From positions 180,001 through 212,000 of the forward strand of contig NZ_OMOH01000005.1 in the NCBI RefSeq assembly GCF_900289195.1: a stretch of 32,000 bases of DNA. The letters are read 5' to 3'. Positions 6,136 through 26,071 of the stretch are shown one piece after another. A program made the translations under genes and the position numbers. The DNA comes from Propionibacterium ruminifibrarum. GTDB taxonomy: Bacteria; Actinomycetota; Actinomycetes; Propionibacteriales; Propionibacteriaceae. Each line of letters opens with the position of its first letter. The first letter of the stretch is position 1. The notes under the pieces are model-generated. The model had not been told where the DNA came from and searched no databases. It saw only the letters and a list, made by a program, of their open reading frames with translations.

Positions 6136-6204
6136 TTCTTCATTTTACCGAGTGCGTGTCAGCGACCCCGGAGACGCTTCGACTCGTTGCGCGGGGCGTG
6201 CAGA

Positions 6205-9094: not shown

Positions 9095-9421
9095 ATGTCC
9101 ACCAACGGCGATGAGCCACGCAACACGACCACTGACACGAAGGATGAGGACGAGGCCGTCGACTGGCGGCATCCGACACCCGAGCAGGGCGCGGAGAAGG
9201 TGCCGAACGGGCTCATCTGGAACAATCCCGGATTCATTCCGCAGACGCGCCGTCCCGTGCCAACGCACAAGCTCGACGAGGACCTGGAGCGCCACCTCTC
9301 AGACGACTCCGCTCAGCAGGACGACTTGGACGACGAGATCACCGAGCGCATCTGCCTCGATGAGACGCGGTGGGCAGACCCCGCCGACGAGGTGGAACCC
9401 GACGAGGACATCCTCGACTAG
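9095..9421 (+). CDS. hypothetical acidic protein
   Basis: ATG at 9095 preceded by GAGGGGA. Highly acidic, low-complexity 108-aa product (…DDLDDEITERICLDETRWADPADEVEPDEDILD). Its stop overlaps the xseB stop within CTAG (9418-9421). No recognisable family. Confidence 0.5.
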   Translation: MSTNGDEPRNTTTDTKDEDEAVDWRHPTPEQGAEKVPNGLIWNNPGFIPQTRRPVPTHKLDEDLERHLSDDSAQQDDLDDEITERICLDETRWADPADEVEPDEDILD

Positions 9422-9669
9422 GCGAGCGGCTCCGCGCTCGGCTGCCCGAGATCTGCGGGCGGCTCGCCGCCGGTCTGCGACTGCTGGCGCGCCTCGTCGA
9501 TGAGCTGGCGTGCGCCGTCGAGTTCCTCCTGGCAGCGGGCCGCCAGTTCCTCCCCGCGCTTCCACAGCTGCATCGACTCGGCCAGCGGCACACCGCCCGA
9601 CTCGAGTTTCGCGACGATCTCGGCGAGTTCGGCGCGGGCCTGCTCGTAGCTGGGTTTCTCATCCGCCAT
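9418..9669 (-). CDS. xseB: exodeoxyribonuclease VII small subunit
   Basis: MADEKPSYEQARAELAEIVAKLESGGVPLAESMQLWKRGEELA is canonical XseB. The ATG at 9669 has an upstream GGAAGGAG. A longer 115-aa form starts at 9765 in an ATGA overlap with the xseA stop. Confidence 0.9.
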   Translation of the reverse strand: MADEKPSYEQARAELAEIVAKLESGGVPLAESMQLWKRGEELAARCQEELDGARQLIDEARQQSQTGGEPPADLGQPSAEPLA

Positions 9670-9761
9670 GGTGGTGGCTCCTTCCGTCTGATTCCAGGTT
9701 GACCGGCCCACTCGGCCCAGCCGTGCTGGCGACCCCGGGCGTCGGCTGCGTGGCGCGGGCG

Positions 9762-11033
9762 TCATGGCCGGTCATCGGTTCCTCCGGCGCTGGGTATCGC
9801 GTCGTCGACCTCGACGACCAGGCGGCCGTCGGACAGGAAAACCATGAGCTGCTCGCCGGGCTCGGTGTCGGCGACCGAGGTGACCGAGGTGTTGTCGGAG
9901 TCGGCGAGGATCGCGTACCCGCGCTCCAGGGTCGCCTTCGGCGACATGGCCCGTACCCGGTCGAGTGCGTGGGCGATCGTCTGCTCCTCGTCGGAGACGA
10001 TGCGGTCGATCGTGCTGCGCAGCCGGTAGCGTGCCATCTGCAGCTGCTGCACGTGACCCTCGAGCGCCGAGACCGGGTCGCGCAGCACCGGGTGTGAGGT
10101 GAGGCGGCCGAGCTCGTAGTACTCGGACTTCACGCGCGCGGTGATGGCCGTGCGCGCCCGGCCCAGCAGCTCGGCGAGATACTGCTGCTCGGCCGCGGCA
10201 TCCGGGACGATGCGCTTGGCCGCGTCGGTGGGGGTGGAGGCGCGAAGATCGGCGACCAGGTCGAGGATCGGGGTGTCCGGCTCGTGGCCGATCGCGCTGA
10301 CCACGGGAGTGCGCGCCGCCGCCACCGCCCGGACCAGGTCCTCGTCGCTGAACGGCAGGAGGTCCTCGAGTGAGCCGCCGCCGCGGGCGATGACGATGAG
10401 GTCGACCCGCGGGTCCACGTCCAGCTCGGCCAGCGCAGCGGCGACCTCGGCGGCGCTGCGCGGCCCCTGCATGAGGGCGTGGCGCACCTCGAACCGAGCC
10501 GACGGCCAGCGGTGCAGCGTGTTGGTGAGCACATCGCGCTCGGCCGCCGAGTCGGCCCCGGTGATCAGGCCGATGCAGGCCGGGACGAACGGCAGCGGTT
10601 TCTTGCGTGCCGGGTCGAACAGGCCCTCCGCCTGCAGGGCGCGTTTGCGCTGCTCCAGCTCGGCGAGCAGGCGTCCCTCCCCGGCGATCTGGATGACGGA
10701 GCACTCGAAGGACAGTCGGGCCGTCTTGTTCCACACGCGGGGACGCAGGCAGGCCAGGACGGTGGTGCCCTCGGTGATCGGTCCGGCGGCGTCGAGCACG
10801 GCGCTGGTCGCGGTGGCCTGCGCCGAGACCTCCTGGGAGGTGTCACGCAGCGTCAGGAACTGGACGGCGTAGTTCGCCCGGCGACGGAGCTCGATGACCT
10901 GGGCCTCGACCCAGATCCAGCCGCAGCGCTCGACCCAGCCCTTGAGCATGCCGACGACCTGCCCCAGGGGCTGGGCGGTCTCGGGGCTGTTGCGCGGGCC
11001 CTGCGCGGTCTGTGTTCCAGGCATGCCCTCCAC
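9762..11033 (-). CDS. xseA: exodeoxyribonuclease VII large subunit
   Basis: N-terminal OB-fold region (IWVEAQVIEL) and catalytic region IARGGGSLEDLLPFSDE. The start is GTG at 11033 or ATG at 11024. Confidence 0.93.
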   Translation of the reverse strand: MEGMPGTQTAQGPRNSPETAQPLGQVVGMLKGWVERCGWIWVEAQVIELRRRANYAVQFLTLRDTSQEVSAQATATSAVLDAAGPITEGTTVLACLRPRVWNKTARLSFECSVIQIAGEGRLLAELEQRKRALQAEGLFDPARKKPLPFVPACIGLITGADSAAERDVLTNTLHRWPSARFEVRHALMQGPRSAAEVAAALAELDVDPRVDLIVIARGGGSLEDLLPFSDEDLVRAVAAARTPVVSAIGHEPDTPILDLVADLRASTPTDAAKRIVPDAAAEQQYLAELLGRARTAITARVKSEYYELGRLTSHPVLRDPVSALEGHVQQLQMARYRLRSTIDRIVSDEEQTIAHALDRVRAMSPKATLERGYAILADSDNTSVTSVADTEPGEQLMVFLSDGRLVVEVDDAIPSAGGTDDRP

Positions 11034-14498: not shown

Positions 14499-14737
14499 GA
14501 CGGCAAGTCTTGCGTCCGCCACCGACGTTTTCCGGCGGAACGGGCGCGACACGCCGGGCCGGCGGCCCGCGGGACGGCCCGGTCCGCCGGCTCCGTCACC
14601 TGTTGCAGGGCCTGGCCGCAGAACCGAACGGGCCGGCCCGGGGGAGGGCAACTCCGCGCCGTCTCAGCCCCAGTGATCGCTGACTGGCATGTGTCGGTTC
14701 GGTCCTCGCCGCCGGGGCGGACTGCTTGAATGGGGCC

Positions 14738-16000
14738 ATGGCGGATCCAACGCAGTTCATGCCGGGTTTCGCCGAGTTCATCTCGGCGAGCCCCACCAGC
14801 TATCACGCCGCGGCAACCATGGCCGAGGGCCTTGCCCAGGCCGGGTTCGAACGCCTCGACGAGCGCAGGCGGTGGGGGAACGTCGCCGGCAGGAGGTTCT
14901 TCGTGCGCGGCGGGGCACTGGTCGCCTGGGTCGGGCCCGAGCAGCCGGCGCCCGACGCCGGGGTGCGCATCGTCGGCACCCACACCGACTCCCCGGCCCT
15001 CAAGCTCAAACCCAATCCGTCCTTCACCCGGGCCGGCTGGCGGCAGGCCAACGTCGAGATCTACGGCGGGCCGCTCATCAACTCCTGGCTCGACCGCGAA
15101 CTCGGGCTGGCCGGCCGCCTCGTCACCCTCGACGGCACCGAGCACCTCGTACACACCGGTCCGGTCCTGCGCATCAGCCAGATAGCGCCCCACTTCGACC
15201 GCAGCGTCAACGAGCGTCTCACCATCGACCGGCAGTACGAGCTGATGCCCAGCTACGGCCTCGGCGAGGGCCCCGACATCGCCGAGTGGGTGTGCGAGCA
15301 GGCGGGCCTCCCGGCCGGTGAGGTCGCCTTCGGCGACATCCACGCCTACCCGACGCAGGCCCCGGCCGTCTTCGGCATCGACGGCGAGTTCTTCGCCTCC
15401 AGCAGGCTCGACAACCTCTCGTCCACCTACCCCGCCTACCGGGCCCTCCTGGGCGCCCGGCCCGGCCGCGACATCGCCCTGTTCGTCGCCTTCGACCACG
15501 AGGAGGTCGGCTCGGGCACCAGCAGCGGCGCGGCAGGGCCCCTGCTGTCCGATGCGCTGGTGCGCATCGCCGACGGCTACGGCCTGCACGGCGACGCCTA
15601 CCAGGCGCTGCTGGCGCGCAGTTCGTGCGTCTCGGCCGACGCGTCGCACGCGGTGAACCCGAACCACGTGGGCAAGTACGATCCCGTCGTCCAGCCGGCG
15701 ATGAACCAGGGCCCGGCCCTCAAGGTGAACGCCCAGCAGCGCTACGCGAGCGACGCCGTCTCGGCCGCGCAGTGGGAGCGGGCCTGCCGTGCCGCCGGGG
15801 TGCCGCACCAGGCGTTCGTCTCGAACAACGACGTCGCCTGCGGCACGACGATCGGCCCGCTCACCGCGCAGCGGCTGGGCATCGCCACCGTCGACGTCGG
15901 CGTGCCGATCCTGTCGATGCACTCCACCCGAGAGATGTGCGGCACGAGCGACCCCGGCTACCTGTGCGCGGCCCTGGCCGCATACTGGGCCGGTGCCTGA
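14738..16000 (+). CDS. M18 family aminopeptidase (aspartyl aminopeptidase-like)
   Basis: Motifs SPTSYHA, GTHTDSPALKLKP, FDHEEVGS and LSMHSTRE. First ATG is at 14738; the track start at 14726 is a TTG. Confidence 0.9.
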   Translation: MADPTQFMPGFAEFISASPTSYHAAATMAEGLAQAGFERLDERRRWGNVAGRRFFVRGGALVAWVGPEQPAPDAGVRIVGTHTDSPALKLKPNPSFTRAGWRQANVEIYGGPLINSWLDRELGLAGRLVTLDGTEHLVHTGPVLRISQIAPHFDRSVNERLTIDRQYELMPSYGLGEGPDIAEWVCEQAGLPAGEVAFGDIHAYPTQAPAVFGIDGEFFASSRLDNLSSTYPAYRALLGARPGRDIALFVAFDHEEVGSGTSSGAAGPLLSDALVRIADGYGLHGDAYQALLARSSCVSADASHAVNPNHVGKYDPVVQPAMNQGPALKVNAQQRYASDAVSAAQWERACRAAGVPHQAFVSNNDVACGTTIGPLTAQRLGIATVDVGVPILSMHSTREMCGTSDPGYLCAALAAYWAGA

Positions 16001-16131
16001 CCAGGGTTGTTGTCAGCCCGCCACGGCGTACTGGGCGGTCGCTGTACTTTCCGCCAGGTGACCGGGAGCTGTCCGCGACGGGGCGGGCGGCGATACAGTG
16101 ACGTCAGTCGTCAACGCGAAAGGCGGGCCGC

Positions 16132-19100
16132 ATGTCGCGCATCAGGGTTGGCAGTGGCGGCATGTTCGGTTATTCCTTCGCCCAGGCGGTCGCCGCCTCG
16201 AAGAGGGGCGATGAGCTCGTCCTCGCCGAGGGCGTGTACACCCTCGGCGAGAGCATCGAGCTGCGGGATCTGCGTCTGACAGGAACAGGTGACCCGTCCC
16301 GGACGGTGATCGACTCCCGCGTCGACGTCACCGGCAGAGCAGTGCTCACCAATCTGACCATCAGGGCGGCTGCCTTCAACAATGCCCTCAAGGTGATGCC
16401 GGGCTGCCGCGTCGAGATGCGCGGGGTGATGCTGATCGGGGATCCTGCGGAGAAGTACCCGGCGCTCTATGTCGACGCCGGTGAGGTCATCTTGGCGGGG
16501 TGCCGCATGGTGCAGGGCCCGACCTGGGTGTCCTCGGTGTTCACCGCCGACTCGCGTCTCGTGGCGCAGTCCAGTGAGCTCGGCTGGTTGGAGTTGACCG
16601 GCACCCGGGCTGAGTTCCACGGGTGCGCTGTTGCCACGGTGCAGGTCCTCAAACGGTCGGCTGTGCGCTCCACCGGGTGGCTGATCTGCACCCCGGCGCC
16701 TGGCAAACGCCTGCTCGCCGTCGGGGGCGAGTCGGTGGTACAGATCGATGGCCTTGCGCTGCGAGGAGCCGCCGACCCCTTGGAGATTTCCTGCGAGGAG
16801 AGCCTGCTCGGCATCGGTGCCGTCGACCTCGACGAAGGCCAGCGTCCCTACATCCTGCGCAAGGGCGCAGGGCGTGTTCAGGTGCCCGACGGCGTGTTCG
16901 AGGTCGTCGACGAGGACGAGCAGAAGGAGGCCGCACCGCCCGCCCTGCTCATGGAACTGCACTGGTCTGTCTCCGACGCCCATCGCTTCACGGACGTCAT
17001 CCTTCCCAGGGCTGCGAGTGGGGCCACCATCACCATGGACGCCGGCGAGTACTTCCTCGATGGTCTCAAGGAGGAGACCGCGTGCTTCGACTGCACACTC
17101 GTCGGGGTCTCCCCGGAACGGACGGTCATCCACGGCACGCTGACCCCGAACGGCTCGGGCGAGTTGAGGCTGCGTGACCTCACCGTCCGGACGGCCACGG
17201 GTCGCAACTGCGTTGTCGCCAAGTCTGGCAGCGTCGCGCTGAGCAACGTCGTCCTCGAGCAGCTCGGCGAACCGATGAGCTATCCCGCGCTCTCGGCCAC
17301 GGACGTCGTCGTCACGATGGAGGACTCACGAGTGGCCGCTGCACCCGGGTCGACCATCGAGGGGATTGTCGAGCTGTGCGGGACTGCCCGGCTGGAGGCC
17401 AGCCGCAGTGATCTGGGCTGGTTCTACGCCAACGACCAGTCGGTGCTGGTCGCAGACGACTGTTCCGCGTACGGGCTCTTCCTCTCCGGTTCCCCCACGA
17501 TCCGGTCGACCGGTGTGTTCGCCATTCGCGGCAACACCTGCCAGACTCGGGGACTGGTGCTCAACCCCGGGACGCGTGCCAGTTTCGAGAAGATCCAGAT
17601 CGGCGGGGGAGCCCATGAGGGCTACGCCGAGGACGCGGTCCTCGAAGTGAGGGAGTTGCGCCACGGTGAGGGCGGCAGCTTCTCGCTCTGCGTCGCAGGT
17701 GAGAACACCCTCTCCGTGCCCGGCGAGCCCTGGTACGTCATCGAGACGGCCCGTGCCGGAGCCTCGACCGGGGAACAGCGCGAACCCGAAGCAGCCCCCG
17801 GGCCGGACGATCGTGCCGCCGACGAGGCGCCGAGGGCCGACGAGGAGGCACCCGAATCGGGTGTTGACGACCCGATGGCCGAGATCATGCTGCTCACCGG
17901 CCTGGAGGGGGTCAAGGAGCAGATCGCCTCATTCCTGAACGTCGTGAAGTTCAACGAGCTGCGCCGTCGTCAGGGGCTCAAGACCTCGGGCACGACGATG
18001 CACAGCCTGTTCCTCGGCAATCCCGGCACCGGGAAAACCACTGTCGCGAGGCTGCTGGGCAAGGCCCTGTACCAGGCCGGCGCCGTCGCGAAGGACGTCT
18101 TCGTCGAAGTGGGGCGCAGGGATCTCGTGAGCGAGAACATCGGCGGGTCGGCCATCCGTACGGGCAAGGTGCTCGAACGGGCCCGTGGCGGCGTGCTCTT
18201 CATCGACGAGGCCTACTCGCTGTACCAGAAGGAGCACAACCAGTTCGCCCAGGAGGCGGTGGACACGATCCTGTCCTTCATGGAGAACGAACGCGACGAG
18301 ATCGTCGTCATCTTCGCCGGATACGACGAACCGATGCAGGACTTCCTCCGCATGAACCCGGGTCTGGCCTCGCGCGTGCCGAACACCTTCACCTTCGAGG
18401 ACTACACGCCGGACGAGATCGCCACGATCGGTGTCGAGGCGCTCCACGGCGACGACTACCGCATCGCCGATGAGGACCTCTACCGGCGCATCGCGAGCCA
18501 GCAGTACGAACGCTCGATCTCCGGCGGCAACGGGCGGTGGGTGCGCAACTTCAACGAGGCCCTCATCATGAAGACCGCAGAGCGCGTGCTGAGGGAGGCC
18601 GAGCAGGGGCGGGTCGACGGGGCCGATCCCGGTCTCATCACCACCGACGACCTCTACGAGTTGGCCGGTGGCGACGAGGACCAGCGCCAGGACGCCGTCA
18701 ACACGCTGCTGTCGCAGCTCGACGACCTGGTGGGGCTCGCCCCGGTGAAGGCATGGGTGCACGAGCTCATCGACGAGGCCAGGGCCAACAAGCTGCTCGC
18801 CGAGCAGGGACTGGCGGTCGAACACCCGACCTACCACATGGTGTTCGCGGGGCGTCCGGGTACGGGCAAGACGACGGTCGCCTCAATCATCGCGCAGCTC
18901 TTCCACAATCTTGGCCTGCTGGAACGCCCGACGGTCCACGAGGTCGACCGCTCCGATCTCGTCGGAGCATATTTCGGTCACACCGAGGAGAAGACCACGC
19001 GTGCCGTGGACAACGCCATGGGTGGTGTGCTGTTCATCGACGAGGCGTACCAGTTGTACGGCGCCTCGGAGAACGACTTCGGTCGGATGGCCATCGAGAC

Positions 19101-19515
19101 GCTCATCACCCGGTTGGAGAACGACCGGGACAAGTTCGTGGTGATCTTCGCCGGTTACACCAAGGAGATGGAGCGCTTCCTCGACGCCAACGAGGGCCTG
19201 CGTTCCCGTGTTCCCCGGATGATCGAGTTCCCCGACTACAGCCCCGACGAGATCGGTGACATGGTCGTGGCGCGGCTGTCGCGGTCGTGGACGATCGACC
19301 GGGCGGCTGTCCACGACATCGCGGCCAGGTCATACGCGGGCCTGCCGGCCCAGGACCGCTCCAACGGCCGGTGGGCGCGCACCTTCGCAGACGCCGTCGT
19401 CACACGGCACAAGAGATGGATCGTGAAGAACCAGCCGACGGGCGAGGCGGTGCTGGCCATCGACACCGAGATGGTGAGATCACTCGCCCAGGAGATGGGA
19501 GCAGATCCGCGCTGA
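16132..19515 (+). CDS. large cytoplasmic fusion protein: duplicated beta-helix-like N-terminal modules + two CbbX/SpoVK/EccA-class AAA+ ATPase domains
   Basis: Single uninterrupted 1127-aa ORF with an ATG start. Residues 1-273 and 274-~545 are paralogous (details in findings). An acidic/Pro linker sits at ~17755-17875. AAA+ module 1 has Walker A GNPGTGKTT (18016-18042) and Walker B VLFIDEAY (18193-18216). Module 2 has GRPGTGKTT (18850-18876) and VLFIDEAY (19027-19050). Both have the FAGY and GLxSRVP motifs. No signal peptide or TM segment. Confidence 0.85.
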   Translation: MSRIRVGSGGMFGYSFAQAVAASKRGDELVLAEGVYTLGESIELRDLRLTGTGDPSRTVIDSRVDVTGRAVLTNLTIRAAAFNNALKVMPGCRVEMRGVMLIGDPAEKYPALYVDAGEVILAGCRMVQGPTWVSSVFTADSRLVAQSSELGWLELTGTRAEFHGCAVATVQVLKRSAVRSTGWLICTPAPGKRLLAVGGESVVQIDGLALRGAADPLEISCEESLLGIGAVDLDEGQRPYILRKGAGRVQVPDGVFEVVDEDEQKEAAPPALLMELHWSVSDAHRFTDVILPRAASGATITMDAGEYFLDGLKEETACFDCTLVGVSPERTVIHGTLTPNGSGELRLRDLTVRTATGRNCVVAKSGSVALSNVVLEQLGEPMSYPALSATDVVVTMEDSRVAAAPGSTIEGIVELCGTARLEASRSDLGWFYANDQSVLVADDCSAYGLFLSGSPTIRSTGVFAIRGNTCQTRGLVLNPGTRASFEKIQIGGGAHEGYAEDAVLEVRELRHGEGGSFSLCVAGENTLSVPGEPWYVIETARAGASTGEQREPEAAPGPDDRAADEAPRADEEAPESGVDDPMAEIMLLTGLEGVKEQIASFLNVVKFNELRRRQGLKTSGTTMHSLFLGNPGTGKTTVARLLGKALYQAGAVAKDVFVEVGRRDLVSENIGGSAIRTGKVLERARGGVLFIDEAYSLYQKEHNQFAQEAVDTILSFMENERDEIVVIFAGYDEPMQDFLRMNPGLASRVPNTFTFEDYTPDEIATIGVEALHGDDYRIADEDLYRRIASQQYERSISGGNGRWVRNFNEALIMKTAERVLREAEQGRVDGADPGLITTDDLYELAGGDEDQRQDAVNTLLSQLDDLVGLAPVKAWVHELIDEARANKLLAEQGLAVEHPTYHMVFAGRPGTGKTTVASIIAQLFHNLGLLERPTVHEVDRSDLVGAYFGHTEEKTTRAVDNAMGGVLFIDEAYQLYGASENDFGRMAIETLITRLENDRDKFVVIFAGYTKEMERFLDANEGLRSRVPRMIEFPDYSPDEIGDMVVARLSRSWTIDRAAVHDIAARSYAGLPAQDRSNGRWARTFADAVVTRHKRWIVKNQPTGEAVLAIDTEMVRSLAQEMGADPR

Positions 19516-19615
19516 GGGCGGTGCCGCCCGGTTGGGTCCCCCTCCGCGTTCGGCCGCAGGTGCCCGGCGGCGCCGGCTGGGGTGCGGGGGCCGGCGAACG
19601 GTAATCTGGGTGGAC

Positions 19616-20689
19616 GTGGCACTCACCATCGGAATCGTCGGCCTGCCCAACGCCGGAAAATCGACCCTGTTCAACGCGCTGACCCGCAACGACGTGCTCG
19701 CGGCGAACTACCCGTTCGCGACGATCGAACCCAACGTCGGCGTGGTCGGGGTGCCCGAGCCCCGCCTCGAGGTGCTGGGGAGGATGTTCAACTCCCAGCG
19801 CCTCGTGCCCGCCACGGTGAGCTTCGTCGACATCGCCGGCATCGTCAAGGGCGCCAGCCAGGGTGAGGGCATGGGCAACGCCTTCCTCGCCAACATCCGC
19901 GAGGCCGACGCCATCTGCCAGGTCACCCGCATGTTCAACGACGCCGACGTCTCGCACGTCGCGGGTTCGATCGACCCGGCATCCGATCTGGAGACGATCA
20001 CCACCGAGCTGGTGCTCGCCGACCTGCAGACCCTGGAGAAGGCGCTGCCCAAGGTCGAGAAGGAGGCGGCGATCAAGAAGGAGGCGCGCCCCCGGGCGGC
20101 CGCCTACCGCGAGGCCTACGAGACGCTCAGCAAGGGCGTCGGCGTCTTCCAGGCCGGCCTGGATCCCGAGCCGCTGCGCGACCTGTGGCTGCTCACCGCC
20201 AAACCGTACATCTACGTCTTCAACTGCGACCAGGACGAGCTGGCCGACGAGGAGCTGAAGGCCCGCACCCGCGAACTCGTTGCCCCGGCCGAGGCCATCT
20301 TCCTCGACGCCAAGTTCGAGGCCGAGCTGGTCGAGATGGAGCCGGACGAGGCCCGCGAGTTCCTCACCGAGATGGGCGTCGACGAGCCCGGCCTCGACAA
20401 GCTGGCCCGGGTGGGCTACGACACCCTCGGCCTGCAGAGCTTCCTCACCGCCGGCGAGAAGGAGGCCCGCGCCTGGACGATCCGCAAGGGCTGGACCGCC
20501 CCGCAGGCCGCCGGCGTCATCCACACCGATTTCGAGAAGGGCTTCATCAAGGCCGAGGTCGTCTCCTACGACGACCTGGTCGAGTACGGCTCGAAGAAGG
20601 AGTGCCAGGCGGCCGGGAAGGTGCGGCTCGAGGGCAAGGACTACGTCATGGCCGACGGGGACGTCGTCGAATTCCGGTTCAACGTGTGA
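19616..20689 (+). CDS. ychF: redox-regulated ATPase YchF
   Basis: GTG at 19616 gives (M)ALTIGIVGLPNAGKSTLFNALT, the canonical YchF N-terminus. Also DIAGIVKGAS and a C-terminal TGS-like end ...DGDVVEFRFNV. 357 aa. Confidence 0.95.
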   Translation: MALTIGIVGLPNAGKSTLFNALTRNDVLAANYPFATIEPNVGVVGVPEPRLEVLGRMFNSQRLVPATVSFVDIAGIVKGASQGEGMGNAFLANIREADAICQVTRMFNDADVSHVAGSIDPASDLETITTELVLADLQTLEKALPKVEKEAAIKKEARPRAAAYREAYETLSKGVGVFQAGLDPEPLRDLWLLTAKPYIYVFNCDQDELADEELKARTRELVAPAEAIFLDAKFEAELVEMEPDEAREFLTEMGVDEPGLDKLARVGYDTLGLQSFLTAGEKEARAWTIRKGWTAPQAAGVIHTDFEKGFIKAEVVSYDDLVEYGSKKECQAAGKVRLEGKDYVMADGDVVEFRFNV

Positions 20690-20691
20690 CG

Positions 20692-20745
20692 TCATTGACG
20701 CCTTCGGCATCACGCGGCACGAACTCGCCGTGTCCCCCCGGCCAT
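20692..20745 (+). pseudogene. relic fragment of a higA-like antitoxin gene (HTH region only)
   Basis: GTCATTGACGCCTTCGGCATCACGCGGCACGAACTCGCCGTGTC aligns with intact higA at 21817-21860 (TTCATCAATGCCTTCGGCATCACGCAACACAAGCTCGCAGTGTC), about 35 of 44 nt by eye. It encodes VIDAFGITRHELAV versus FINAFGITQHKLAV. There is no start codon, and homology ends after ~50 nt. Confidence 0.55.
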
Positions 20746-20777
20746 GGCCGCGGGTCGCGGCGGGAGGACTGGCGGAG

Positions 20778-21200
20778 TCACGCTACCTCCCACGGGCTGA
20801 CGACCGCTATGCCCAGCGCCGCGAAGTCCTTGGTGTTGCGCGTGACCACGGTCAGGCCGTTGACCGCCGCGGTGGCTGCGATGAGTGCGTCGCGCTCTGG
20901 CCGCGGGTCCGGGACGTGCTGACGTGCGGCCCGGCGGGCCGCGGCGAGATCGATGGGGAGGATCCGGCCGGTGAAGGCGTCGAGGAGCTGCCCGTCCAAC
21001 CATGACTGGAGCCGCTGCGCCTGGGCGTGATCCCGCCTGTCCAGCCTGGCTATGCCCAGTTCCACCTCAAGGATTGTGATCACCGACAGGTACATGTCCG
21101 ACGGCCTTCGTGAAGCCACCCATGAGCGCACTCGGGGGTCGGCTCTGCGCACGGGCTTGCGGAGCTCGCTGACCACATTGGTGTCCAGGAGAAAGCTCAT
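20778..21200 (-). CDS. vapC: type II toxin VapC (PIN-domain ribonuclease, FitB-like)
   Basis: MSFLLDTNVVSELRKP... is a PIN N-terminal acidic motif. 140 aa. The ATG overlaps the upstream antitoxin stop (ATGA at 21197-21200). Confidence 0.9.
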   Translation of the reverse strand: MSFLLDTNVVSELRKPVRRADPRVRSWVASRRPSDMYLSVITILEVELGIARLDRRDHAQAQRLQSWLDGQLLDAFTGRILPIDLAAARRAARQHVPDPRPERDALIAATAAVNGLTVVTRNTKDFAALGIAVVSPWEVA

Positions 21201-21436
21201 AACTCTGGAACCCTCAGGCCGATGGATGCCGGCTCGAACTCGACATCGACGTCGTCATCCATGCTCAGCCTGTCGACCAGTGAGGCGCCCGTCTCCCCGA
21301 GCCTGCGGTAGTCGTCAATGGTCAGCAGGACGTACGCCGGTTCGCCGCGGTCGGTGATGATGACCGGCCCGTCATTGGCCGCCCGTTTGGCGGCACTGAC
21401 GTCGTGGTTGAAGTCGCGGGCGGTGATCGAGGTCAT
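21197..21436 (-). CDS. type II antitoxin, Phd/YefM (prevent-host-death) family, partner of VapC
   Basis: MTSITARDFNHDVSAAKRAANDGPVIITDRGEPAYVLLTIDDYRRL is a typical Phd/YefM N-terminal domain. 79 aa, translationally coupled to vapC. Confidence 0.88.
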   Translation of the reverse strand: MTSITARDFNHDVSAAKRAANDGPVIITDRGEPAYVLLTIDDYRRLGETGASLVDRLSMDDDVDVEFEPASIGLRVPEL

Positions 21437-21484
21437 GCCGACACCTCCTGTGTAGGTACATGCCTACGGTATCTTCGGTACATG
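21437..21484. promoter_or_regulatory. candidate shared operator/promoter region between divergent antitoxin gene and higB
   Basis: Only 23 nt separate the two start codons. Inverted repeat GTAGG-N6-CCTAC lies at 21452-21467. Direct repeat GGTACATG occurs at 21455-21462 and 21477-21484. The function is inferred, not shown. Confidence 0.3.
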
Positions 21485-21759
21485 TGGCGGACAAGGGGTG
21501 GGCGCGCTGCACCCGCCGGGCCATGGAGTGGGGCATAGGATGTTGCTGCGGCGCGTGGCAGCATCGATACCTGAGGCTGCTGAAGCTCGATGCCGCTGTG
21601 TCGCTCAACTCGCTTCGAGTCCAGCCCGGGAATCATTTGGAAGCATTGAAGGGTGACCGGAAGGGTCAGCACAGTATCCGGATCAATGACCAGTGGCGGA
21701 TCTGCTTCGTGTGGACCGATGCCGGCCCCGAGAACGTGATCATTGAGGACTACCACTGA
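21460..21759 (+). CDS. higB: type II toxin HigB (RelE/ParE superfamily, plasmid-maintenance killer type)
   Basis: The C-terminal two thirds, LDAAVSLNSLRVQPGNHLEALKGDRKGQHSIRINDQWRICFVWTDAGPENVIIEDYH, is the HigB signature. The N-terminal ~35 aa are atypical (Cys/Trp-rich), so the true start or intactness is uncertain. Confidence 0.78.
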   Translation: MPTVSSVHVADKGWARCTRRAMEWGIGCCCGAWQHRYLRLLKLDAAVSLNSLRVQPGNHLEALKGDRKGQHSIRINDQWRICFVWTDAGPENVIIEDYH

Positions 21760-21767
21760 GGTGCACC

Positions 21768-22067
21768 ATGGCAGAAAAGCTCTACGCGCCGATCCATCCG
21801 GGCGAGGTCCTGATGGAGGACTTCATCAATGCCTTCGGCATCACGCAACACAAGCTCGCAGTGTCGATCGGCGTGCCCCCGCGTCGGATCAATGAGATCG
21901 TGCACGGCAAGCGGGCGATCACTGCTGACACGGCGCTGCGCCTGGGGCGTTACTTCGACGTCGAGCCGCAGTTCTGGCTCAATCTGCAGTCACGGTACGA
22001 GCTGGAGCTGGCGGAAGATCGCGCTGCCGGTGAGTTCGACGCCATCAAGCCCATCCACGCCTCATGA
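21768..22067 (+). CDS. higA: type II antitoxin HigA (HTH, Xre-like)
   Basis: HPGEVLMEDFINAFGITQHKLAVSIGVPPRRINEIVHGKRAITADTALRLGRYFDVEPQFWLNLQ is the canonical HigA-family sequence. It starts 8 nt after the higB stop, with GAGG upstream. Confidence 0.92.
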   Translation: MAEKLYAPIHPGEVLMEDFINAFGITQHKLAVSIGVPPRRINEIVHGKRAITADTALRLGRYFDVEPQFWLNLQSRYELELAEDRAAGEFDAIKPIHAS

Positions 22068-22110
22068 CGGCGGGGCCGAGCATCGACGTGGTGATCGCGG
22101 CGATGTCTAC

Positions 22111-22312
22111 GCCGGGGTGGGTGATTGCCACCTCGCAGCTGGCTGGAGTGTCGAGGTGGTCGTGTTCGGCATGACGGCGAGGCGTTGGCGCGACGGCCTC
22201 ATCGAGCACGGCTCGACGAAGGAGTGCCAGGCCGCCGGGAAGGTGCGGCTCCGAGGGCAAGGACTACGTGATGGCCGACGGGGACGTGGTGGAGTTCCGG
22301 TTCAGTGTGCGA
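22111..22312 (+). pseudogene. decayed duplicate of the ychF 3' end
   Basis: Core 22191-22309 aligns with ychF 20571-20689. By my hand count there are about 13 substitutions plus a 1-nt insertion (CTCCGAGGG vs CTCGAGGG) over ~120 nt. The insertion shifts the frame, and the stop TGA has become CGA. Weaker protein-level similarity (AGV...EVVVF vs AGVIHTDFEKGFIKAEVVSY) extends back to ~22111. Confidence 0.8.
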
Positions 22313-22327
22313 TGCCCGGGTGGACGC

Positions 22328-22419
22328 GGACAAGAAGTAGCGTATCGGCCCTCCAAAAAGTATCGTATTGAATCTCCAAAAGGTAGCGTAGAGATCAGCT
22401 AAAAAGTAGTCTTCATGCA
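22328..22419. repeat. four imperfect 23-bp AT-rich tandem repeats ending at the start codon of the DUF4143 ATPase gene
   Basis: Phased units begin at 22328, 22351, 22374 and 22397: GGACAAGAAGTAGCGTATCGGCC / CTCCAAAAAGTATCGTATTGAAT / CTCCAAAAGGTAGCGTAGAGATC / AGCTAAAAAGTAGTCTTCATGCA. Conserved core is AAAAAGTAGCGTA. This is the lowest-GC stretch in the window. Confidence 0.8.
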
Positions 22420-23672
22420 TGGAATACCTTGTCAGGACACTTGACCGCGAGTTGGATGCTCTTCTGGCCGATGCCCCTGCCGTCGCGATCGACGGACCCA
22501 AGGGTGTGGGGAAGACCGACACCGCGGCTCGCAGAGCGGGGCAGGCCTGGTTCCTCGATGACCCGGCCCAGCGAGAACTGCTTCGTGCCGACTTCGCACT
22601 TGACGCCATCGCCCCGCAGGGGGCGGTGCTGCTCGATGAGTGGCAGCAGCTGCCTCAGGTGTGGGATTCTGTGCGGCGCGCAGTGGACAGAGGGGCTGCT
22701 CCGGGAAGATTCCTTCTCACCGGGTCGGCCACGCCTGCTTCGGCATCGGGCACGCACAGCGGAGCGGGTCGCATCCTGTCGCTCCGGATGCGCCCGATGG
22801 GTCTGCACGAGCGAGGTGTGACCCGTCCAGCGGTCTCACTGGCAGCGCTTCTCACCGGTACCGCAGGAGAACTCGGGTCAACGACTGAGTTCGGCCTACG
22901 CGATTATGTCGGAGCGATCGTGTCAAGCGGCTTCCCCGGCACGCTCGGCATGTCGCCCCGAATGCGTCGTGGCTTCCTGGACTCCTACCTCTCCCGCGTC
23001 ATCGATCGTGATCTCCCGGATCAGGGCTACGAGGTTCGCCGCCCCGAGACGCTGAGACGCTGGCTCGCCGCCTACGCGGCGGCGTCATCGACGACGACCG
23101 CCTATTCACGACTCCTTGACGCCACAACCGGTGGCGACGGGGCGCAGCCGGCGAAGACAACGACCATCGCGTATCGGGATCACCTCAGCAGGCTGTGGCT
23201 GCTGGACCCCGTCCCCGCCTGGATGCCAGCGAGCAGTCCCTTCACCGCGTTGCGGCAGGCTCCCAAGCATCAGCTGGCCGATCCGGCGCTGGCGGCCCGC
23301 CTGCTGCGATTGACAGAGTCAACACTGCTTGCCCCTGAGGGCTCGGTGATGCTCGGCCACCTCTTCGAATCCCTGGTCACCCTTGGGATCCGCATCATGG
23401 CACAGGCCGCTGAGGCCACTGTCGGCCATCTGCGTACCAAGGCCGGTGAGCACGAAGTCGATCTCATCGTGGAGTCAGTGGACGGGGGAGTGCTCGGTAT
23501 CGAGGTCAAACTCGCGCCGGGGGTCCAGGACCCGGACGTGCGTCATCTCCTCTGGTTGCACGATCAGATTCCGGATCGGGTCGTGGACCTCGCCGTCATC
23601 ACCACGGGTCCAGCCGCGTACCGACGCCCCGACGGGGTCGCAGTGATCCCGCTCGCCCTGCTCGGTGCGTGA
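22419..23672 (+). CDS. AAA-type ATP-binding protein with DUF4143-like C-terminal domain
   Basis: Walker A AIDGPKGVGKTDTA, Walker B VLLDEWQ, and C-terminal HEVDLIVES...GIEVKL resembling a PD-(D/E)xK core. Many A/T-ending codons at the 5' end (gaa tac ctt gtc agg aca ctt). TAGTCT (22407-22412) sits 6 nt before the ATG, a possible leaderless arrangement. Confidence 0.85.
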   Translation: MEYLVRTLDRELDALLADAPAVAIDGPKGVGKTDTAARRAGQAWFLDDPAQRELLRADFALDAIAPQGAVLLDEWQQLPQVWDSVRRAVDRGAAPGRFLLTGSATPASASGTHSGAGRILSLRMRPMGLHERGVTRPAVSLAALLTGTAGELGSTTEFGLRDYVGAIVSSGFPGTLGMSPRMRRGFLDSYLSRVIDRDLPDQGYEVRRPETLRRWLAAYAAASSTTTAYSRLLDATTGGDGAQPAKTTTIAYRDHLSRLWLLDPVPAWMPASSPFTALRQAPKHQLADPALAARLLRLTESTLLAPEGSVMLGHLFESLVTLGIRIMAQAAEATVGHLRTKAGEHEVDLIVESVDGGVLGIEVKLAPGVQDPDVRHLLWLHDQIPDRVVDLAVITTGPAAYRRPDGVAVIPLALLGA

Positions 23673-24253
23673 CCGAGTTTCGTTCGACATCTCCACAGAC
23701 CGGCTTGACGAGGCTGTCGGGAGATTTCCCAATCTGCAAGTCATCGCTGAGGGCAGCGTCAAACGTCCTGATGTGCAACCGACCGTTGTTCCGCCGACGA
23801 TGGCCCAGTTGCTGCGCGTCCCCCCGAACAGCGCTCTGGGAGACATGTCATCGTCGCAACCGAGTGTCTGCCCACCCAAGGGCTCCGGCCCGGCTGGAGA
23901 CGGTGAGTGGGGACGGCTCCGTTGAGCAGTTCTTTCTCATGCCGAGATCCCCGACCTGTGACGTCCTCACCTCGGCCGTGGTTGAGTCCCGTAGTGGCTC
24001 ATGCCGTATTCGACCGGGCACATTGCTCGTGCTCCGCTCGTCCGGGCCCCTTCTGGACTTCCATCCGCCACACTGCTGCAACACGGTGCGATCGTCTTCT
24101 GCCCCGAGGCCATGACGACGATCCGCACTGGCCTCACAACTGTCGCGCTACCGCCCCAGCAGTCGGCTCGCCCGGGAAATGTCAGTGGCGGGCTGCAAGA
24201 TGGTTCATGGCCGGCGACACGGGCAGCGATCATGTCCCGAAGAAGGAGGGGGA

Positions 24254-25129
24254 GTGCACGACACCTGGAACCCCTGGCACGGCTGCCGCCGCGTCTCAGA
24301 GGGCTGTGACAACTGCTTCATGATGCACCGCGACGCCTCGTGGGGCGTCGACGGCGAGGTCATCCGCCGTGTCGCGCCCGCCGGTTTCACCTACCCGCTC
24401 AGCGTGGACCGCAACGGGGCCTACAAGGTGCGCGCCGGCGAGATGCTGCGCGTGTGCATGACCAGTGACTTCTTCCTGCGCCAGGCCGATCCCTGGCGCG
24501 AGGAGGCCTGGGACGTCATCCGGGCTCGCCCCGACGTGAAGTTCTTCCTGCTCACCAAGCGCCCGCACCGGGTCGCCCGCTGCCTGCCCGGCGACTGGGG
24601 CGACGGCTGGGACAACGTCATGCTCTCGGTCTCCGTCGAGAACCAGCGGCGCGCCGACCAGCGCATGCCCGTCCTGCTCGACCTGCCCTTCGCCCACAAG
24701 GGCGCCATGGCCGCGCCCCTCATCGGTCCCCTCGACGTGGCCCCGTACCTCGCCGACGGGCAGGTCGAGCAGATCCTCGTCGGCGGTGAGAACTACGGCG
24801 GCACCAGGCCGCTCGACATCGACTGGGTCCGCTCCCTGCGCGCCCAGTGCGAGGCCGCCGACGTGTCCATGACCTTCATCGAGACCGGCTCGGTCCTCGT
24901 CAAGGACGGCCGCACCTACCGGATGGGCTCCAAACGCCACCAGTCCGTGCAGGCCCACCGCTCCGGACTGTCCTACCAGGCCCGCGCCCGCCGGCCATGG
25001 CACCTGCGCGCACCGCTCGGCTGGGAGATCCCCGCCGGTGAACTACACGTTCCCGAGTTCTCCGGCGACTGCCTCACCTGCGGCTCCCGGCCCATCTGCA
25101 ATGGCCTCTACCAGGGGCGCTGCGCCTGA
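24254..25129 (+). CDS. DUF5131 family protein (phage Gp37/Gp68-like, three-Cys motif)
   Basis: GTG at 24254 preceded by AAGGAGGGGGA. The N-terminus (M)HDTWNPWHGCRRVSEGCDNCFMM matches the family signature WNPxxGCxxxSxGCxxC. An extra C-terminal Cys cluster is CLTCGSRPICNGLYQGRC. Confidence 0.85.
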   Translation: MHDTWNPWHGCRRVSEGCDNCFMMHRDASWGVDGEVIRRVAPAGFTYPLSVDRNGAYKVRAGEMLRVCMTSDFFLRQADPWREEAWDVIRARPDVKFFLLTKRPHRVARCLPGDWGDGWDNVMLSVSVENQRRADQRMPVLLDLPFAHKGAMAAPLIGPLDVAPYLADGQVEQILVGGENYGGTRPLDIDWVRSLRAQCEAADVSMTFIETGSVLVKDGRTYRMGSKRHQSVQAHRSGLSYQARARRPWHLRAPLGWEIPAGELHVPEFSGDCLTCGSRPICNGLYQGRCA

Positions 25130-25244
25130 CCAGGAACCATCCGCTCAGCCCGGCGTCACCGGCCGTTCTTCACTGCGACAACACCTGAGTTCCGGTCGGC
25201 CACACGATGATCCGCGTCAACGGCCCTGGACCGGAGGGGTCACT

Positions 25245-25276
25245 GGGGCCGGCCGTATGACGACTCGGCCGGCCCC
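25245..25276. terminator. GC-rich stem-loop between convergent genes (likely bidirectional intrinsic terminator)
   Basis: GGGGCCGGCCG (25245-25255), a 10-nt loop, then CGGCCGGCCCC (25266-25276), giving a perfect 11-bp stem. It lies between the DUF5131 stop (25129) and the lipoprotein stop (25298). There is no U-tract, as is common in high-GC actinobacteria. Confidence 0.7.
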
Positions 25277-25297
25277 AGCGGATGGTCGTCCATGCGC

Positions 25298-25795
25298 TCA
25301 ACCGCAGGTGGCGGTCATCTCGAAGCTCCGCAGCGGGACGGAGGGGTCCGTCGCGACCTCGGCGGGCGCTTCGCCGGTGACGGTGTAGGTCGAGCCGTCG
25401 ACCGTCGCCTCGGCATGGCCAATGCCACCGACGTCTATGAAGGAGAGCACCGATTCGCCCTCCCGGCCGGCATTGATCATGGCCACCTGGCCATTCTCGT
25501 CGAGAGTCACTGTGAAGGAGCTGGCCGTTGTCGTTGTCGACGCGGCGTGGACAGTGGTCATGCCATCCTCCGTGCCGCACGCCACGATCGGCTGGTCGAT
25601 GGTGAAGGGTTCACCGTCGATTGTCGCCGAGAAGTCGCCGCCGGTGGTCGCCTCGGGTGCGCTGCTCGTCGTGGCGGCCTCGGCGGGAGAGGAACTCTCG
25701 GTGGTGTTCGACTGGCCGCTGCACGCGCCCAGGCTCAGCGCCAGGGCAGGGGCCAGAATCAGGGTCATGACGGTCTTGGTGGTGGGGTTCTTCAT
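25298..25795 (-). CDS. secreted lipoprotein (LpqH / 19-kDa-antigen-like)
   Basis: Signal peptide with lipobox LSLGAC, a Ser/Thr/Ala/Glu-rich linker after the lipidated Cys, and a beta-rich mature domain with a conserved Cys pair (…IVACGTEDG…MTATCG). Assignment to the LpqH family is tentative. Confidence 0.8.
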   Translation of the reverse strand: MKNPTTKTVMTLILAPALALSLGACSGQSNTTESSSPAEAATTSSAPEATTGGDFSATIDGEPFTIDQPIVACGTEDGMTTVHAASTTTTASSFTVTLDENGQVAMINAGREGESVLSFIDVGGIGHAEATVDGSTYTVTGEAPAEVATDPSVPLRSFEMTATCG

Positions 25796-26071
25796 GGTGC
25801 GTCCTCACTTCGTACGCGGTCGTGATCGAGGGGTGCCGATCCTGCGCCGAGGCGGGACCGGTGACCGACGACGGGCATCAGCCCTCATCAGTATAGGAAT
25901 CGTCGTCCCCATCCCGGAAACCGGTCGAAGACCTCATCGGTGATCCGGGCCCGGGCGGGGCCAAGGTTCCGCAAGGCCTGGGCCTGCGCAGGCTCGTTGC
26001 CGTGCCGGATCGTGCCGGACGATTCGTCCAACGCGGCCACTCGGGCTTCAGTGTCGCCTCCTGTCGGATGC

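What the first reader, a model, noticed from the sequence alone, without database searches (positions are those of the whole stretch)
20571..22312. ychF 3' end is duplicated around a 1.5-kb toxin-antitoxin islet: integration/accretion scar at a protein-coding attachment site
Seen in sequence: the last ~120 nt of ychF (20571-20689) recur at 22191-22309 in the same orientation. My hand count gives about 13 substitutions and one 1-nt insertion. The insertion breaks the frame and the stop codon is mutated to CGA. Fainter protein-level similarity reaches back to ~22111. Between the two copies lie only accessory genes (Phd/YefM-VapC and HigB-HigA). Established knowledge: elements that integrate into the 3' end of a gene carry a replacement 3' end. 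The displaced original is left as a decaying direct repeat at the far junction. Inference: the TA islet entered, or accreted in steps, at the ychF 3' end. No integrase is present between the repeats, so the element is either decayed or was mobilised in trans. ychF is not a site I know to be commonly used for integration.
Basis: partly seen in the sequence, partly recalled or inferred. Interest (0 to 1): 0.6.

Follow-up and report, generated by a model that had tools for sequence, protein, structure and literature searches.

The report
Insertion scars at the ychF gene end
The repeated end of the ychF gene is a real scar of foreign DNA inserted behind this housekeeping gene, at a spot where related bacteria use a serine integrase to stack toxin-antitoxin and defence genes, although this genome no longer has that enzyme.

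Summary
Window 20569-20689 (the ychF 3' end) recurs at 22191-22312 at about 90% identity, with one extra C and TGA changed to CGA (BLASTN E 3e-38).

- **Nested history.** The sister species G004 has four ychF ends separating higA-relic/VapBC, HigBA, a DUF4143 ATPase and a Wadjet system. G000 lost one ychF end, plus the 5' end of higB, in a ~280-bp deletion.
- **Empty-site variants.** Seven other same-genus genomes show only the ychF gene itself and none of the islet. Other strains of the same species carry an extra 750-bp one-gene cassette between ychF and a 30-nt ychF tail.
- **Family-wide hotspot.** Most of the ~25 Propionibacteriaceae loci examined carry extra short ychF tails, up to seven in a row, between defence or TA modules. 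Many have a palindromic hybrid site, CCGGAAC-N8-GTTCCGG.
- **Recombinase.** One large serine recombinase (LSR) family sits just downstream of ychF in at least 7 of 9 genomes that have it.
- **Other users of the site.** Streptomyces elements and phages with tyrosine integrases also target the ychF tail.

G000 has no such recombinase. Its 121-nt repeat is a duplicated attB-like (bacterial attachment) site, not a canonical recombinase product, so this junction was probably made by a homology-driven insertion. It is a new member of a known kind.

The parts
19610..20689 (+). ychF, intact, 359 aa, with the canonical 'type A' C-terminus ...EFRFNV*
   Evidence: Pfam MMR_HSR1 plus YchF-GTPase_C, 2.7e-40. 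It is 74-96% nt identical to ychF of 40 relatives.
20654..20689 (+). attB-like site inside the ychF tail (GACGGGGACGTCGTCGAATTCCGGTTCAACGTGTGA). The 12-nt core GGTSGARTTCCG is shared with the repeats seen in relatives.
   Evidence: Alignment of about 50 tails from about 25 loci. A 16-bp core flanks a tyrosine-integrase element in a provirus record whose integrase relatives are all in Streptomyces.
20688..20734 (+). higA relic (codons ~18-33) abutting the ychF stop. It is the remnant of an older ychF-higBA junction.
   Evidence: It is 81% identical to 21819-21865 (D3). The relic is 128 nt long in G004 and 212 nt long in other strains of the species.
20778..21200 (-). vapC (PIN toxin)
   Evidence: Pfam PIN, 2e-13.
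21197..21436 (-). phd/yefM antitoxin
   Evidence: Pfam PhdYeFM_antitox, 1e-11.
21544..21569 (.). Deletion scar. About 280 bp present in G004 is missing here: a third ychF remnant, the higBA operator and the first ~30 codons of higB.
   Evidence: Pairwise alignment of G000 and G004.
21569..21759 (+). higB 3' remnant. The toxin gene has lost its native N-terminus. Gene callers extend it to a chimeric 91-99 aa ORF.
   Evidence: The Pfam HigB-like_toxin match covers only profile positions 32-91 of 91. G004 has the full VIRSFGDRDTE... N-terminus.
21768..22067 (+). higA antitoxin (HTH_3), intact
   Evidence: Pfam HTH_3, 2e-09. It is 97% aa identical to the G004 protein.
22068..22190 (.). Spacer with no ychF similarity. 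It holds a ~25-aa minus-strand gene relic that has a paralogue 9 kb further into the G004 island.
   Evidence: BLASTN 22109-22183 vs G004, 79%. ORF comparison. No match in other genera.
22191..22312 (+). ychF' pseudo-fragment (ychF nt 960-1080). It is frameshifted by an extra C and its stop reads CGA. It contains a second complete attB-like site.
   Evidence: The G004 orthologue is unbroken and identical to G004's own ychF end.
22328..23672 (+). AT-rich 23-bp repeats followed by the AAA_14/DUF4143 ATPase gene (22419-23672). This is the next, older module of the array.
   Evidence: Pfam. In G004 this gene is followed by a fourth ychF remnant, aa 298-330, E 1e-6.
24179..25129 (+). DUF5131 (phage Gp37/Gp68-like) gene, the last cargo of the variable interval. 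It is absent from G004 at this place.
   Evidence: Pfam, 1.5e-38..
25286..25804 (-). Right border of the variable interval. Synteny with G004 and G005 resumes at the 19-kDa lipoprotein (LpqH-like) gene.
   Evidence: G004:C1:100929-102682 and G005:C4:25208-25555. Pfam Myco_19_kDa.

Best explanation
The ychF repeat is a true insertion scar.

The interval between ychF and the lpqH-like gene is a recombination hotspot. Accessory modules have been stacked there one after another, always at the extreme 3' end of ychF, and each event pushed an older ychF end downstream. Inferred order for the G000/G004 lineage, oldest to newest:
1. The cargo now lying distal to the ATPase.
2. The DUF4143 ATPase module.
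3. HigBA.
4. The higA-relic/VapBC module.

G000 then decayed further. A ~280-bp deletion removed one ychF remnant and the 5' end of higB. The relic higA shrank. ychF' acquired a frameshift and lost its stop.

Across Propionibacteriaceae the hotspot is served by a large serine recombinase (LSR). Its attB is an imperfect palindrome about 20 nt before the ychF stop, with core GGTSGARTTCCG. The LSR-linked elements supply a replacement YchF C-terminus ('type B', ...EFRTGLTSGGKK*). Its stop often overlaps the (A/G)TG of the first cargo gene. They leave hybrid sites of the form CCGGAAC-N8-GTTCCGG plus the old tail.

G000 has lost every such recombinase, so its islet is an immobile, recombinase-less remnant.

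Shown here: the repeat, the nesting, the polymorphism, the family-wide tails and the LSR linkage.

Inferred: the 121-nt junction itself was made by homology-dependent insertion of DNA that carried a ychF 3' piece from a close relative. This could have been Campbell-type or homology-facilitated illegitimate recombination. It was not made by LSR crossover at the core.
For: **Repeat and nesting**
- The repeat is significant and unique in the genome.
- G004 has ychF plus three remnants, each at a module boundary. Its island ends with DUF3375, DUF4194 and SMC-like genes, which together make a Wadjet system.

**Variability**
- Seven same-genus genomes lack the islet. Synteny resumes only at the lpqH-like gene.
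- Three assemblies of the same species (L061-L063, ~99% identical) add a type-B tail, a 232-aa zinc-ribbon gene and a 30-nt type-A tail.
- A Pfam scan of 251 family genomes found long extra YchF C-terminal fragments in 6 genomes of 5 genera.

**Short tails in relatives**
- Short tails lie in the same orientation downstream of ychF in G008, G009, G010, G012, G013, G014, G016, G017, G018, G020, G054 (seven tails), G067, G110 and G131.
- The prediction that genomes with type-B ends hold a displaced type-A tail was met in 4 of the 5 newly tested genomes. G009 and strain L061, which prompted the prediction, also show one.

**Recombinase linkage**
- The LSR (Pfam Resolvase plus Recombinase) lies 35 nt to 10 kb downstream of ychF, on the same strand, in G010, G014, G020, G054, G065, G096 and G131.
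- It is 36-42% identical to actinophage serine integrases.
- G000 has no homologue of this LSR and no match over the cut-off to serine-recombinase domains. It has only Xer-like tyrosine recombinases.

**Nature of ychF'**
- ychF' has ychF sequence on both sides of the core and no CCGGAAC arm.
- Both copies are of the G000/G004 lineage type.
Against: - No exact empty site for the whole islet was found (ychF joined directly to the sequence right of 22312).
- The order of insertions is inferred from topology alone. The remnant nearest to ychF (ychF'' in G004, 83% aa) is more diverged than the next one (ychF', 95-100%). This requires either gene conversion or import from a more distant donor.
- The homology-driven origin of the 121-nt junction is an argument by exclusion. 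An element whose attP arm carried a long captured ychF piece would give the same topology.
- No LSR activity, circular form or excision has been observed.
- Genome counts come from a sample of about 25 loci that I chose partly because they had hits.
Confidence: 0.7

Rival explanations
1. This would be a classical site-specific island. A single integrative element, encoding a tyrosine or serine integrase, carried a 121-nt replacement ychF 3' end in its attP. It integrated, displaced the original end to 22191-22312, and later lost its integrase and most of its genes. Only the addictive TA modules remain.
For: - Phages L040, L041 and L045 carry 14-21 ychF codons next to a PF00589 integrase.
- A 9-kb element in a provirus record, and related Streptomyces elements, are flanked by a 16-bp ychF-tail core next to a tyrosine integrase, some in tandem.
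- LSR elements sit at ychF within the family.
- The G009 functional ychF has a foreign type-B end, while its remnant keeps type A.
Against: - All recombinase-linked repeats seen are 12-63 nt long, not 121-290 nt.
- ychF' lacks an element-derived arm at the core.
- None of the six long-repeat cargos holds an integrase.
- Both G000/G004 copies are of the same lineage type, so nothing marks either as foreign.
- The islet is nested, not one element.
Confidence: 0.22
2. This would be a purely local rearrangement. A segmental duplication of the ychF end, followed by deletions or gene conversion, produced the second copy. No foreign DNA entered at this point, and the TA genes are old residents.
For: - The two copies are identical in G004 and of the same lineage type.
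- ychF-higBA adjacency is old and widespread in the family.
Against: - The sequence after each copy differs immediately after the stop codon.
- The islet is absent from seven same-genus genomes.
- The VapBC block has no homologue near ychF in the relatives searched.
- Cargo differs between genomes and even between strains.
Confidence: 0.05
3. The second copy would be part of a functional, independently conserved small gene or regulatory element, for example a leader or promoter for the ATPase gene.
For: - It sits directly upstream of the 23-bp repeats and the ATPase start.
- The sequence is retained in both G000 and G004.
Against: - It is frameshifted and has lost its stop in G000, yet it is intact in G004, so no reading frame is conserved.
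- It evolves at about 8-9% between the species, like the neutral islet. The functional tail differs by about 4%.
Confidence: 0.03

Closest known systems
SCCmec / psi-SCC composite islands at the 3' end of orfX (rlmH) in staphylococci (from my own knowledge, not tested here)
   Same: - Large serine recombinases target a short core at the extreme 3' end of a conserved housekeeping gene.
- The gene stays intact.
- Direct repeats of the core separate tandemly stacked elements.
- Many units lack the recombinase and depend on one supplied in trans.
- The cargo is accessory or defence genes.
   Different: - The target is ychF, not rlmH, and the host is Actinomycetota.
- The elements here supply a replacement C-terminus. 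Its stop overlaps the start codon of the first cargo gene.
- G000 itself has no recombinase.
- Its repeat is 121 nt long rather than a ~15-nt core.
Pipolins encoding large serine recombinases integrated at ychF in Actinomycetota (bioRxiv 10.1101/2024.05.22.595293)
   Same: The same target gene, the same phylum, the same recombinase class and defence-rich cargo.
   Different: - No piPolB was seen or specifically searched for in the loci examined.
- The paper gives no att sequence in the text I could read, so identity of the site is untested.
- G000 has no LSR.
Integrative elements and temperate phages that integrate into the 3' end of a gene or tRNA and carry a replacement end (tyrosine integrases)
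   Same: - Direct repeats of the gene's 3' end flank the insert.
- The functional copy is kept.
- This was shown here for ychF in phages L040 and L045, and in the Streptomyces-type elements G267 and L051-L056.
   Different: - Those repeats are 16-63 nt long and adjoin an integrase gene.
- The G000 islet has no integrase and a longer repeat.
- No ychF-associated tyrosine integrase was found in the 15 family and order genomes checked.
Type II toxin-antitoxin modules VapBC (Phd/YefM-PIN hybrid) and HigBA as stabilising cargo of islands and cassette arrays, for example the Vibrio superintegron (from my own knowledge)
   Same: Small TA pairs persist in otherwise decayed mobile DNA. HigBA sits directly at the attachment site in many relatives.
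   Different: Here higB is 5'-truncated, so only VapBC looks complete. No attC or integron integrase is involved.

Membership tests
Serine-integrase (LSR) integrative element / SCC-like array at the ychF tail | A large serine recombinase encoded in or next to the element | tested here: not met
   G000 has no PF07508 match, only a sub-threshold PF00239 match elsewhere in the genome, and no tblastn hit to the G010 LSR. The feature is met in relatives G010, G014, G020 (pseudogene), G054 (partial), G065, G096 and G131.
Serine-integrase (LSR) integrative element / SCC-like array at the ychF tail | Hybrid attR made of an element arm (CCGGAAC-type) plus the core plus the old ychF tail | tested here: not met
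   The ychF' copy at 22191-22312 has ychF sequence on both sides of the core. No CCGGAAC arm occurs anywhere in 20500-25400.
Serine-integrase (LSR) integrative element / SCC-like array at the ychF tail | Occupied and empty forms of the site among close relatives | tested here: met
   Strains L061-L063 carry a 750-bp cassette between a type-B ychF end and a 30-nt type-A tail. G000, L060 and G004 lack it. For the whole TA islet, only islet-free species with other cargo were found, not an exact empty site.
Serine-integrase (LSR) integrative element / SCC-like array at the ychF tail | Demonstrated recombination (circular form, attP, excision) | not testable with these tools
No attP-bearing free element was found in the plasmid or phage collections.
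Tyrosine-integrase island with a replacement 3' end | A tyrosine integrase adjacent to one repeat | tested here: not met
   G000 has only two Xer-like matches and one weak PF00589 match, all on other contigs. tblastn with the two ychF-linked integrases found nothing.
Tyrosine-integrase island with a replacement 3' end | Direct repeats of the target gene's 3' end flanking the insert, with the functional gene preserved | tested here: met
Type II TA module HigBA | A full-length HigB/RelE-fold toxin with its adjacent HTH antitoxin | tested here: not met
   HigA is intact. HigB matches only profile positions 32-91 of 91, and its native N-terminus was removed by the deletion seen against G004.
Type II TA module VapBC (Phd/YefM antitoxin + PIN toxin) | Overlapping antitoxin-toxin gene pair with both domains complete | tested here: met
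   Phd is 79 aa (profile positions 1-61 of 74). PIN is 140 aa (profile positions 2-117 of 120). The genes overlap by 4 nt at 21197-21200. Toxin activity was not tested.

The most novel reading that the evidence does not exclude
In Propionibacteriaceae the ychF tail may be a cassette platform, functionally between SCC and an integron.
- A serine integrase, often acting in trans, would insert single-gene or few-gene promoterless cassettes.
- Each cassette would bring a replacement YchF C-terminus (TGLTSGGKK*) carrying a Shine-Dalgarno sequence and an (A/G)TGA stop/start overlap.
- The newest cassette would then be transcribed and translationally coupled to the constitutive ychF gene.
- Older cassettes, ending in HigBA, would be pushed downstream.

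The G000 islet would be a fossil of such an array.
Probability: 0.3. Interest if true: 0.7.

Novelty: new member of a known kind. Interest (0 to 1): 0.45.

Why it matters
For this genome the result is modest. It explains why a TA islet with a broken higB, an orphan ATPase and a phage-like gene sit behind ychF, and it shows that they are decaying, immobile cargo.

The wider context is more useful.
- The last ~35 nt of ychF are nearly invariant across Actinomycetota. At least three unrelated recombinase lineages have adopted them as an attachment site: a serine integrase family in Propionibacteriaceae, tyrosine integrases of Streptomyces elements, and small tyrosine integrases of mid-GC phages.
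- In Propionibacteriaceae, which includes dairy Propionibacterium and relatives, the ychF-to-higBA interval is a predictable place to look for defence systems. Those seen here include type I restriction-modification, GmrSD and Wadjet.
- The site offers a candidate serine-integrase/attB pair for genetic tools in this family.
- The translationally coupled replacement tail would be a new way for cargo to borrow the expression of a housekeeping gene, if it proves real.

Tried and rejected
- **Faint similarity left of 22191.** tblastn and MAFFT show none.
- **tRNA or tmRNA as the true target.** There are none in the window.
- **Integrase hidden in or near the islet or elsewhere in G000.** Pfam PF00589, PF00239 and PF07508 scans and tblastn were all negative, apart from Xer-like genes.
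- **Tyrosine integrases near ychF in 15 related genomes.** None was found.
- **Exact empty site.** ychF joined directly to the 23-bp repeats and the ATPase was not found. The ATPase lies 3-10 kb from ychF in G011 and G016.
- **Conservation of the higA-spacer-ychF' unit in other genera.** The spacer matches nothing outside the species and G004.
- **A distal, fully decayed tail at 25187 (GAGTTCCGGT).** G004 has no counterpart, so this is probably chance.
- **Extra PF06071 hits.** Those in G094, G124, G211, G237 and G254 are contig splits or frameshifts. Those in G196 and G230 are second full copies in 5%-contaminated assemblies. None is a true extra fragment.
- **Free elements carrying the LSR.** Plasmid and phage collections held only distant (31-42%) serine integrases.


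Full report
**1. Observation**

The last 121 nt of ychF (window 20569-20689, TGA included) recur in direct orientation at 22191-22312.
- BLASTN gives 90.4% identity over its best 114 columns, E = 3e-38. The next best hit between ychF and the rest of the window has E = 0.011.
- The repeat finder reports the same pair, split at a 1-nt insertion.
- The second copy has an extra C near 22251, and its stop reads CGA.
- A scan of the whole 2.78-Mb assembly finds only these two ychF tails.

Pfam confirms ychF, a PIN/VapC gene, a Phd/YefM gene, a HigB-like gene, an HTH_3 HigA gene, and then an AAA_14/DUF4143 ATPase and a DUF5131 gene. There is no tRNA in the window.

A 47-nt relic of higA abuts the ychF stop at 20688-20734 and is 81% identical to 21819-21865.

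**2. The sister species shows a nested history**

G004 is in the same genus (ychF 96% nt identical, islet ~91%). It has the same layout but is less decayed. In order, it reads:
- intact ychF;
- a higA relic of 128 nt;
- vapC-phd;
- a third ychF remnant (ychF nt 795-917, then an internal deletion and a tail reading ADGDVVKVRMT), followed at the usual ~40-nt spacing by the higBA operator and an intact higB (VIRSFGDRDTE...) and higA;
- a spacer;
- ychF' (nt 960-1080, unbroken, and 100% identical to G004's own ychF end);
- the 23-bp repeats and the ATPase gene;
- a fourth, strongly decayed remnant (aa 298-330, 58% aa identity, E 1e-6);
- about 17 kb that includes DUF3375, DUF4194 and SMC-like genes, which together make a Wadjet system.

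G000 lacks about 280 bp at 21544/21569. That deletion removed the third remnant, the operator and the first ~30 codons of higB. This explains why Pfam matches only positions 32-91 of the HigB profile. Each module is therefore followed by a ychF end, which is the signature of serial insertion at one site.

**3. The interval is variable between species and within the species**
- Seven other genomes of the genus (G001-G003 and G005-G008) match only the ychF gene in a 5.6-kb query and carry none of the islet.
- The 1127-aa AAA+ gene upstream (16001-19587) is also absent from them. This agrees with note e1-2746976.
- Downstream synteny resumes only at the lpqH-like gene, at window ~25286.
- Looking up the exact HigA protein returned other assemblies of the same species. 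One (L060) is identical to the window.
- Three others (L061 from GCA_040307615.1, and L062 and L063) are ~99% identical but hold an extra ~750 bp. In them ychF ends ...EFRAGLTSGGNK*. Its stop overlaps the GTG of a 232-aa double-zinc-ribbon membrane gene. A 30-nt canonical ychF tail (GACGTCGTCGCGTTCCGGTTCAACGTGTGA) follows, and then a longer higA relic of 212 nt.
- The functional tail of G000 carries the same GTCGTCG variants as that displaced tail. The repeats at the ychF tail have therefore been recombinationally active within the species.

**4. The same site is used across the family**

A Pfam YchF-GTPase_C scan of 251 family genomes found long extra fragments in six genomes of five genera: G000, G004, G009, G018, G110 and G135. 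Other double hits were contig splits, frameshifts or contamination.

Their cargos differ, and none holds an integrase:
- G009 has DUF6998, HTH, DUF998 and TetR genes.
- G110 has an rpiR-murQ-PTS-mupG operon.
- G135 has 13 kb, with an inverted remnant.

Reading the ychF ends showed two natural C-termini:
- type A, the canonical ...EFRFNV*;
- type B, ...EFR(T/S)GLTSGGKK*.

I predicted that genomes with type-B ends should hold a displaced type-A tail further downstream. That was met in G008 (+14.4 kb), G010 (+18.8 kb), G012 (+5.0 kb) and G017 (+5.3 and +6.3 kb). G009 and strain L061, which prompted the prediction, also show one. It was not met in G005.

A wider listing found tails in most of the ~25 loci examined, all on the ychF strand. 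G054 has seven within 19 kb. Many share an element-derived arm, so the site reads CCGGAAC-N8-GTTCCGG followed by TTCAACGTNTGA. That is a perfect 7-nt inverted repeat around GGTSGA. The ychF sequence itself is an imperfect version of it.

In G013, G016, G054, G067 and G110 the last such site is followed by higBA or a higB-like fragment. In G018 and G024, higBA follows the functional ychF directly. ychF-higBA is therefore the old junction, and later cargo went in between.

In G010 the GmrSD gene itself ends in a second type-B tail...GDVVEFRSGLTSGGKK*. Its stop overlaps the GTG of hsdM. The same (A/G)TGA overlap is seen in L061 and G054. The islands have lower GC than their flanks and carry GmrSD, type I restriction-modification, ArdA, IS elements and ATPases.

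**5. The recombinase**

The G010 island encodes a 518-aa large serine recombinase (Resolvase plus Recombinase domains). It is 36-42% identical to serine integrases of Microbacterium and Mycobacterium phages.

Searching 121 family genomes found close relatives in nine. In seven of them the gene lies on the ychF strand, 35 nt to 10 kb downstream of ychF:
- G131 and G096, immediately after a TGLTSKK* tail;
- G020, as a pseudogene after an EFRHS* tail, which also occurs in G110;
- G014, G065, G054 and G010.

This agrees with a report that LSR-encoding pipolins in Actinomycetota integrate at ychF (bioRxiv 10.1101/2024.05.22.595293).

Other recombinases use the same tail.
- Three IMG/VR phage contigs carry 14-21 ychF codons beside a small PF00589 integrase.
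- A 9-kb element in a provirus record is bounded by AGTTCCGCTTCAACGT, with a tyrosine integrase next to the distal copy.
- The relatives of that integrase are all in Streptomyces. Six of the eight Streptomyces loci show the core, five of them about 100 nt after the integrase gene and two with a second core in tandem.

**6. What this means for the G000 repeat**

G000 and G004 have none of these recombinases.

The ychF' copy has genuine ychF sequence on both sides of the core, and no CCGGAAC arm exists in the islet. It is a duplicated attB-like site, not a hybrid product. The long remnants in G009, G110, G018 and G135, and the 36-nt one in G040, are the same.

Both G000/G004 copies are of the same lineage type. 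Both read CTCGAGGGC and ATGGCCGAC, whereas G002 and G005 differ. The incoming ychF piece therefore came from a close relative, or the resident end was itself copied.

I therefore favour a homology-dependent insertion for this junction. The candidates are Campbell-type integration of a circularised fragment that contained a ychF 3' piece, or homology-facilitated illegitimate recombination anchored in ychF. It happened inside a hotspot whose diversity is otherwise generated by the serine integrase. This step is inference. An element whose attP arm had captured ~105 nt of ychF would give the same map.

**7. Comparison and verdict**

The closest analogue is the SCCmec/psi-SCC arrangement at the 3' end of rlmH. 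That comparison rests on my own knowledge and was not tested. The shared features are a serine recombinase, a short core in the tail of a housekeeping gene, tandem units, and many units without a recombinase.

The G000 islet fails the membership tests for an active element. It has no recombinase and no hybrid site. It is best filed as a decayed, recombinase-less member of a known kind of island at a known kind of site.

The family-wide picture is the part worth following up: arrays of ychF tails, a palindromic site, a linked LSR, and a replacement C-terminus with a stop/start overlap. I found no description of it in the searchable literature beyond the pipolin paper.

Limits:
- The loci were sampled, not exhaustive.
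- No recombination was observed.

Noticed in passing
window 16001-19587: The 1127-aa twin-AAA+ gene upstream of ychF is absent from five same-genus genomes. In them ychF directly follows the gene at 14684-16000. ychF is therefore flanked by insertions on both sides.
   Followed up: partly
window 21460-21759: higB is a 5'-truncated remnant fused to unrelated upstream sequence. Gene callers still call a 78-100 aa 'HigB-like toxin' in all strains. Annotation of this pair as an intact TA module is probably wrong.
   Followed up: partly
L061:3983-4731 (GCA_040307615.1 JAWRJE010000215.1); also L075 (G054), oriented 9509-10192: The 232-aa double-zinc-ribbon membrane gene of the strain-specific cassette has a 37%-identical homologue in the G054 array. 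There too it sits directly behind a type-B tail with an ATGA overlap. The same cassette type therefore occurs in two genera.
   Followed up: partly
L028 (G004:C1:110000-125500), about 3596-9148: A Wadjet system (DUF3375 JetA, DUF4194 JetB, SMC-like JetC) lies in the G004 version of the hotspot, after the ATPase gene and the fourth ychF remnant.
   Followed up: partly
L024 (G009:C10:198500-208500), 5912 and 7878: Two ychF tails in G009 are followed by identical sequence for at least 34 nt (cttcaacgtgtagcggaagctccgggcagtttgc). The DUF998-TetR segment between them is thus flanked by a longer repeat than the tail alone.
   Followed up: no
L031 (G040, another family of the order), 1546-1641: A 36-nt copy of exactly the attB-like ychF tail sits 24 nt after the ychF stop, with nothing else between. 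It may be an excision or deletion footprint.
   Followed up: no
L039 (G011), 1731-1790: After a type-A stop, G011 has TTTCTGGAGGTAAGAAAGCGA, which resembles the end of type-B tails. The type-B C-terminus may have arisen from sequence downstream of a type-A stop, or this may be a scar of a lost cassette.
   Followed up: no
window 22068-22190 (minus strand): The spacer encodes about 25 aa (..HAEHDHLDTPASCEVAITHPGV..) similar to a 69-aa ORF 9 kb further into the G004 island. It is a relic of an unidentified gene.
   Followed up: no
window 22328-22419: Four 23-bp AT-rich repeats lie between ychF' and the ATPase start and are conserved in G004. They were noted earlier in this scan as e1-2746980. 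Their function is unknown.
   Followed up: no
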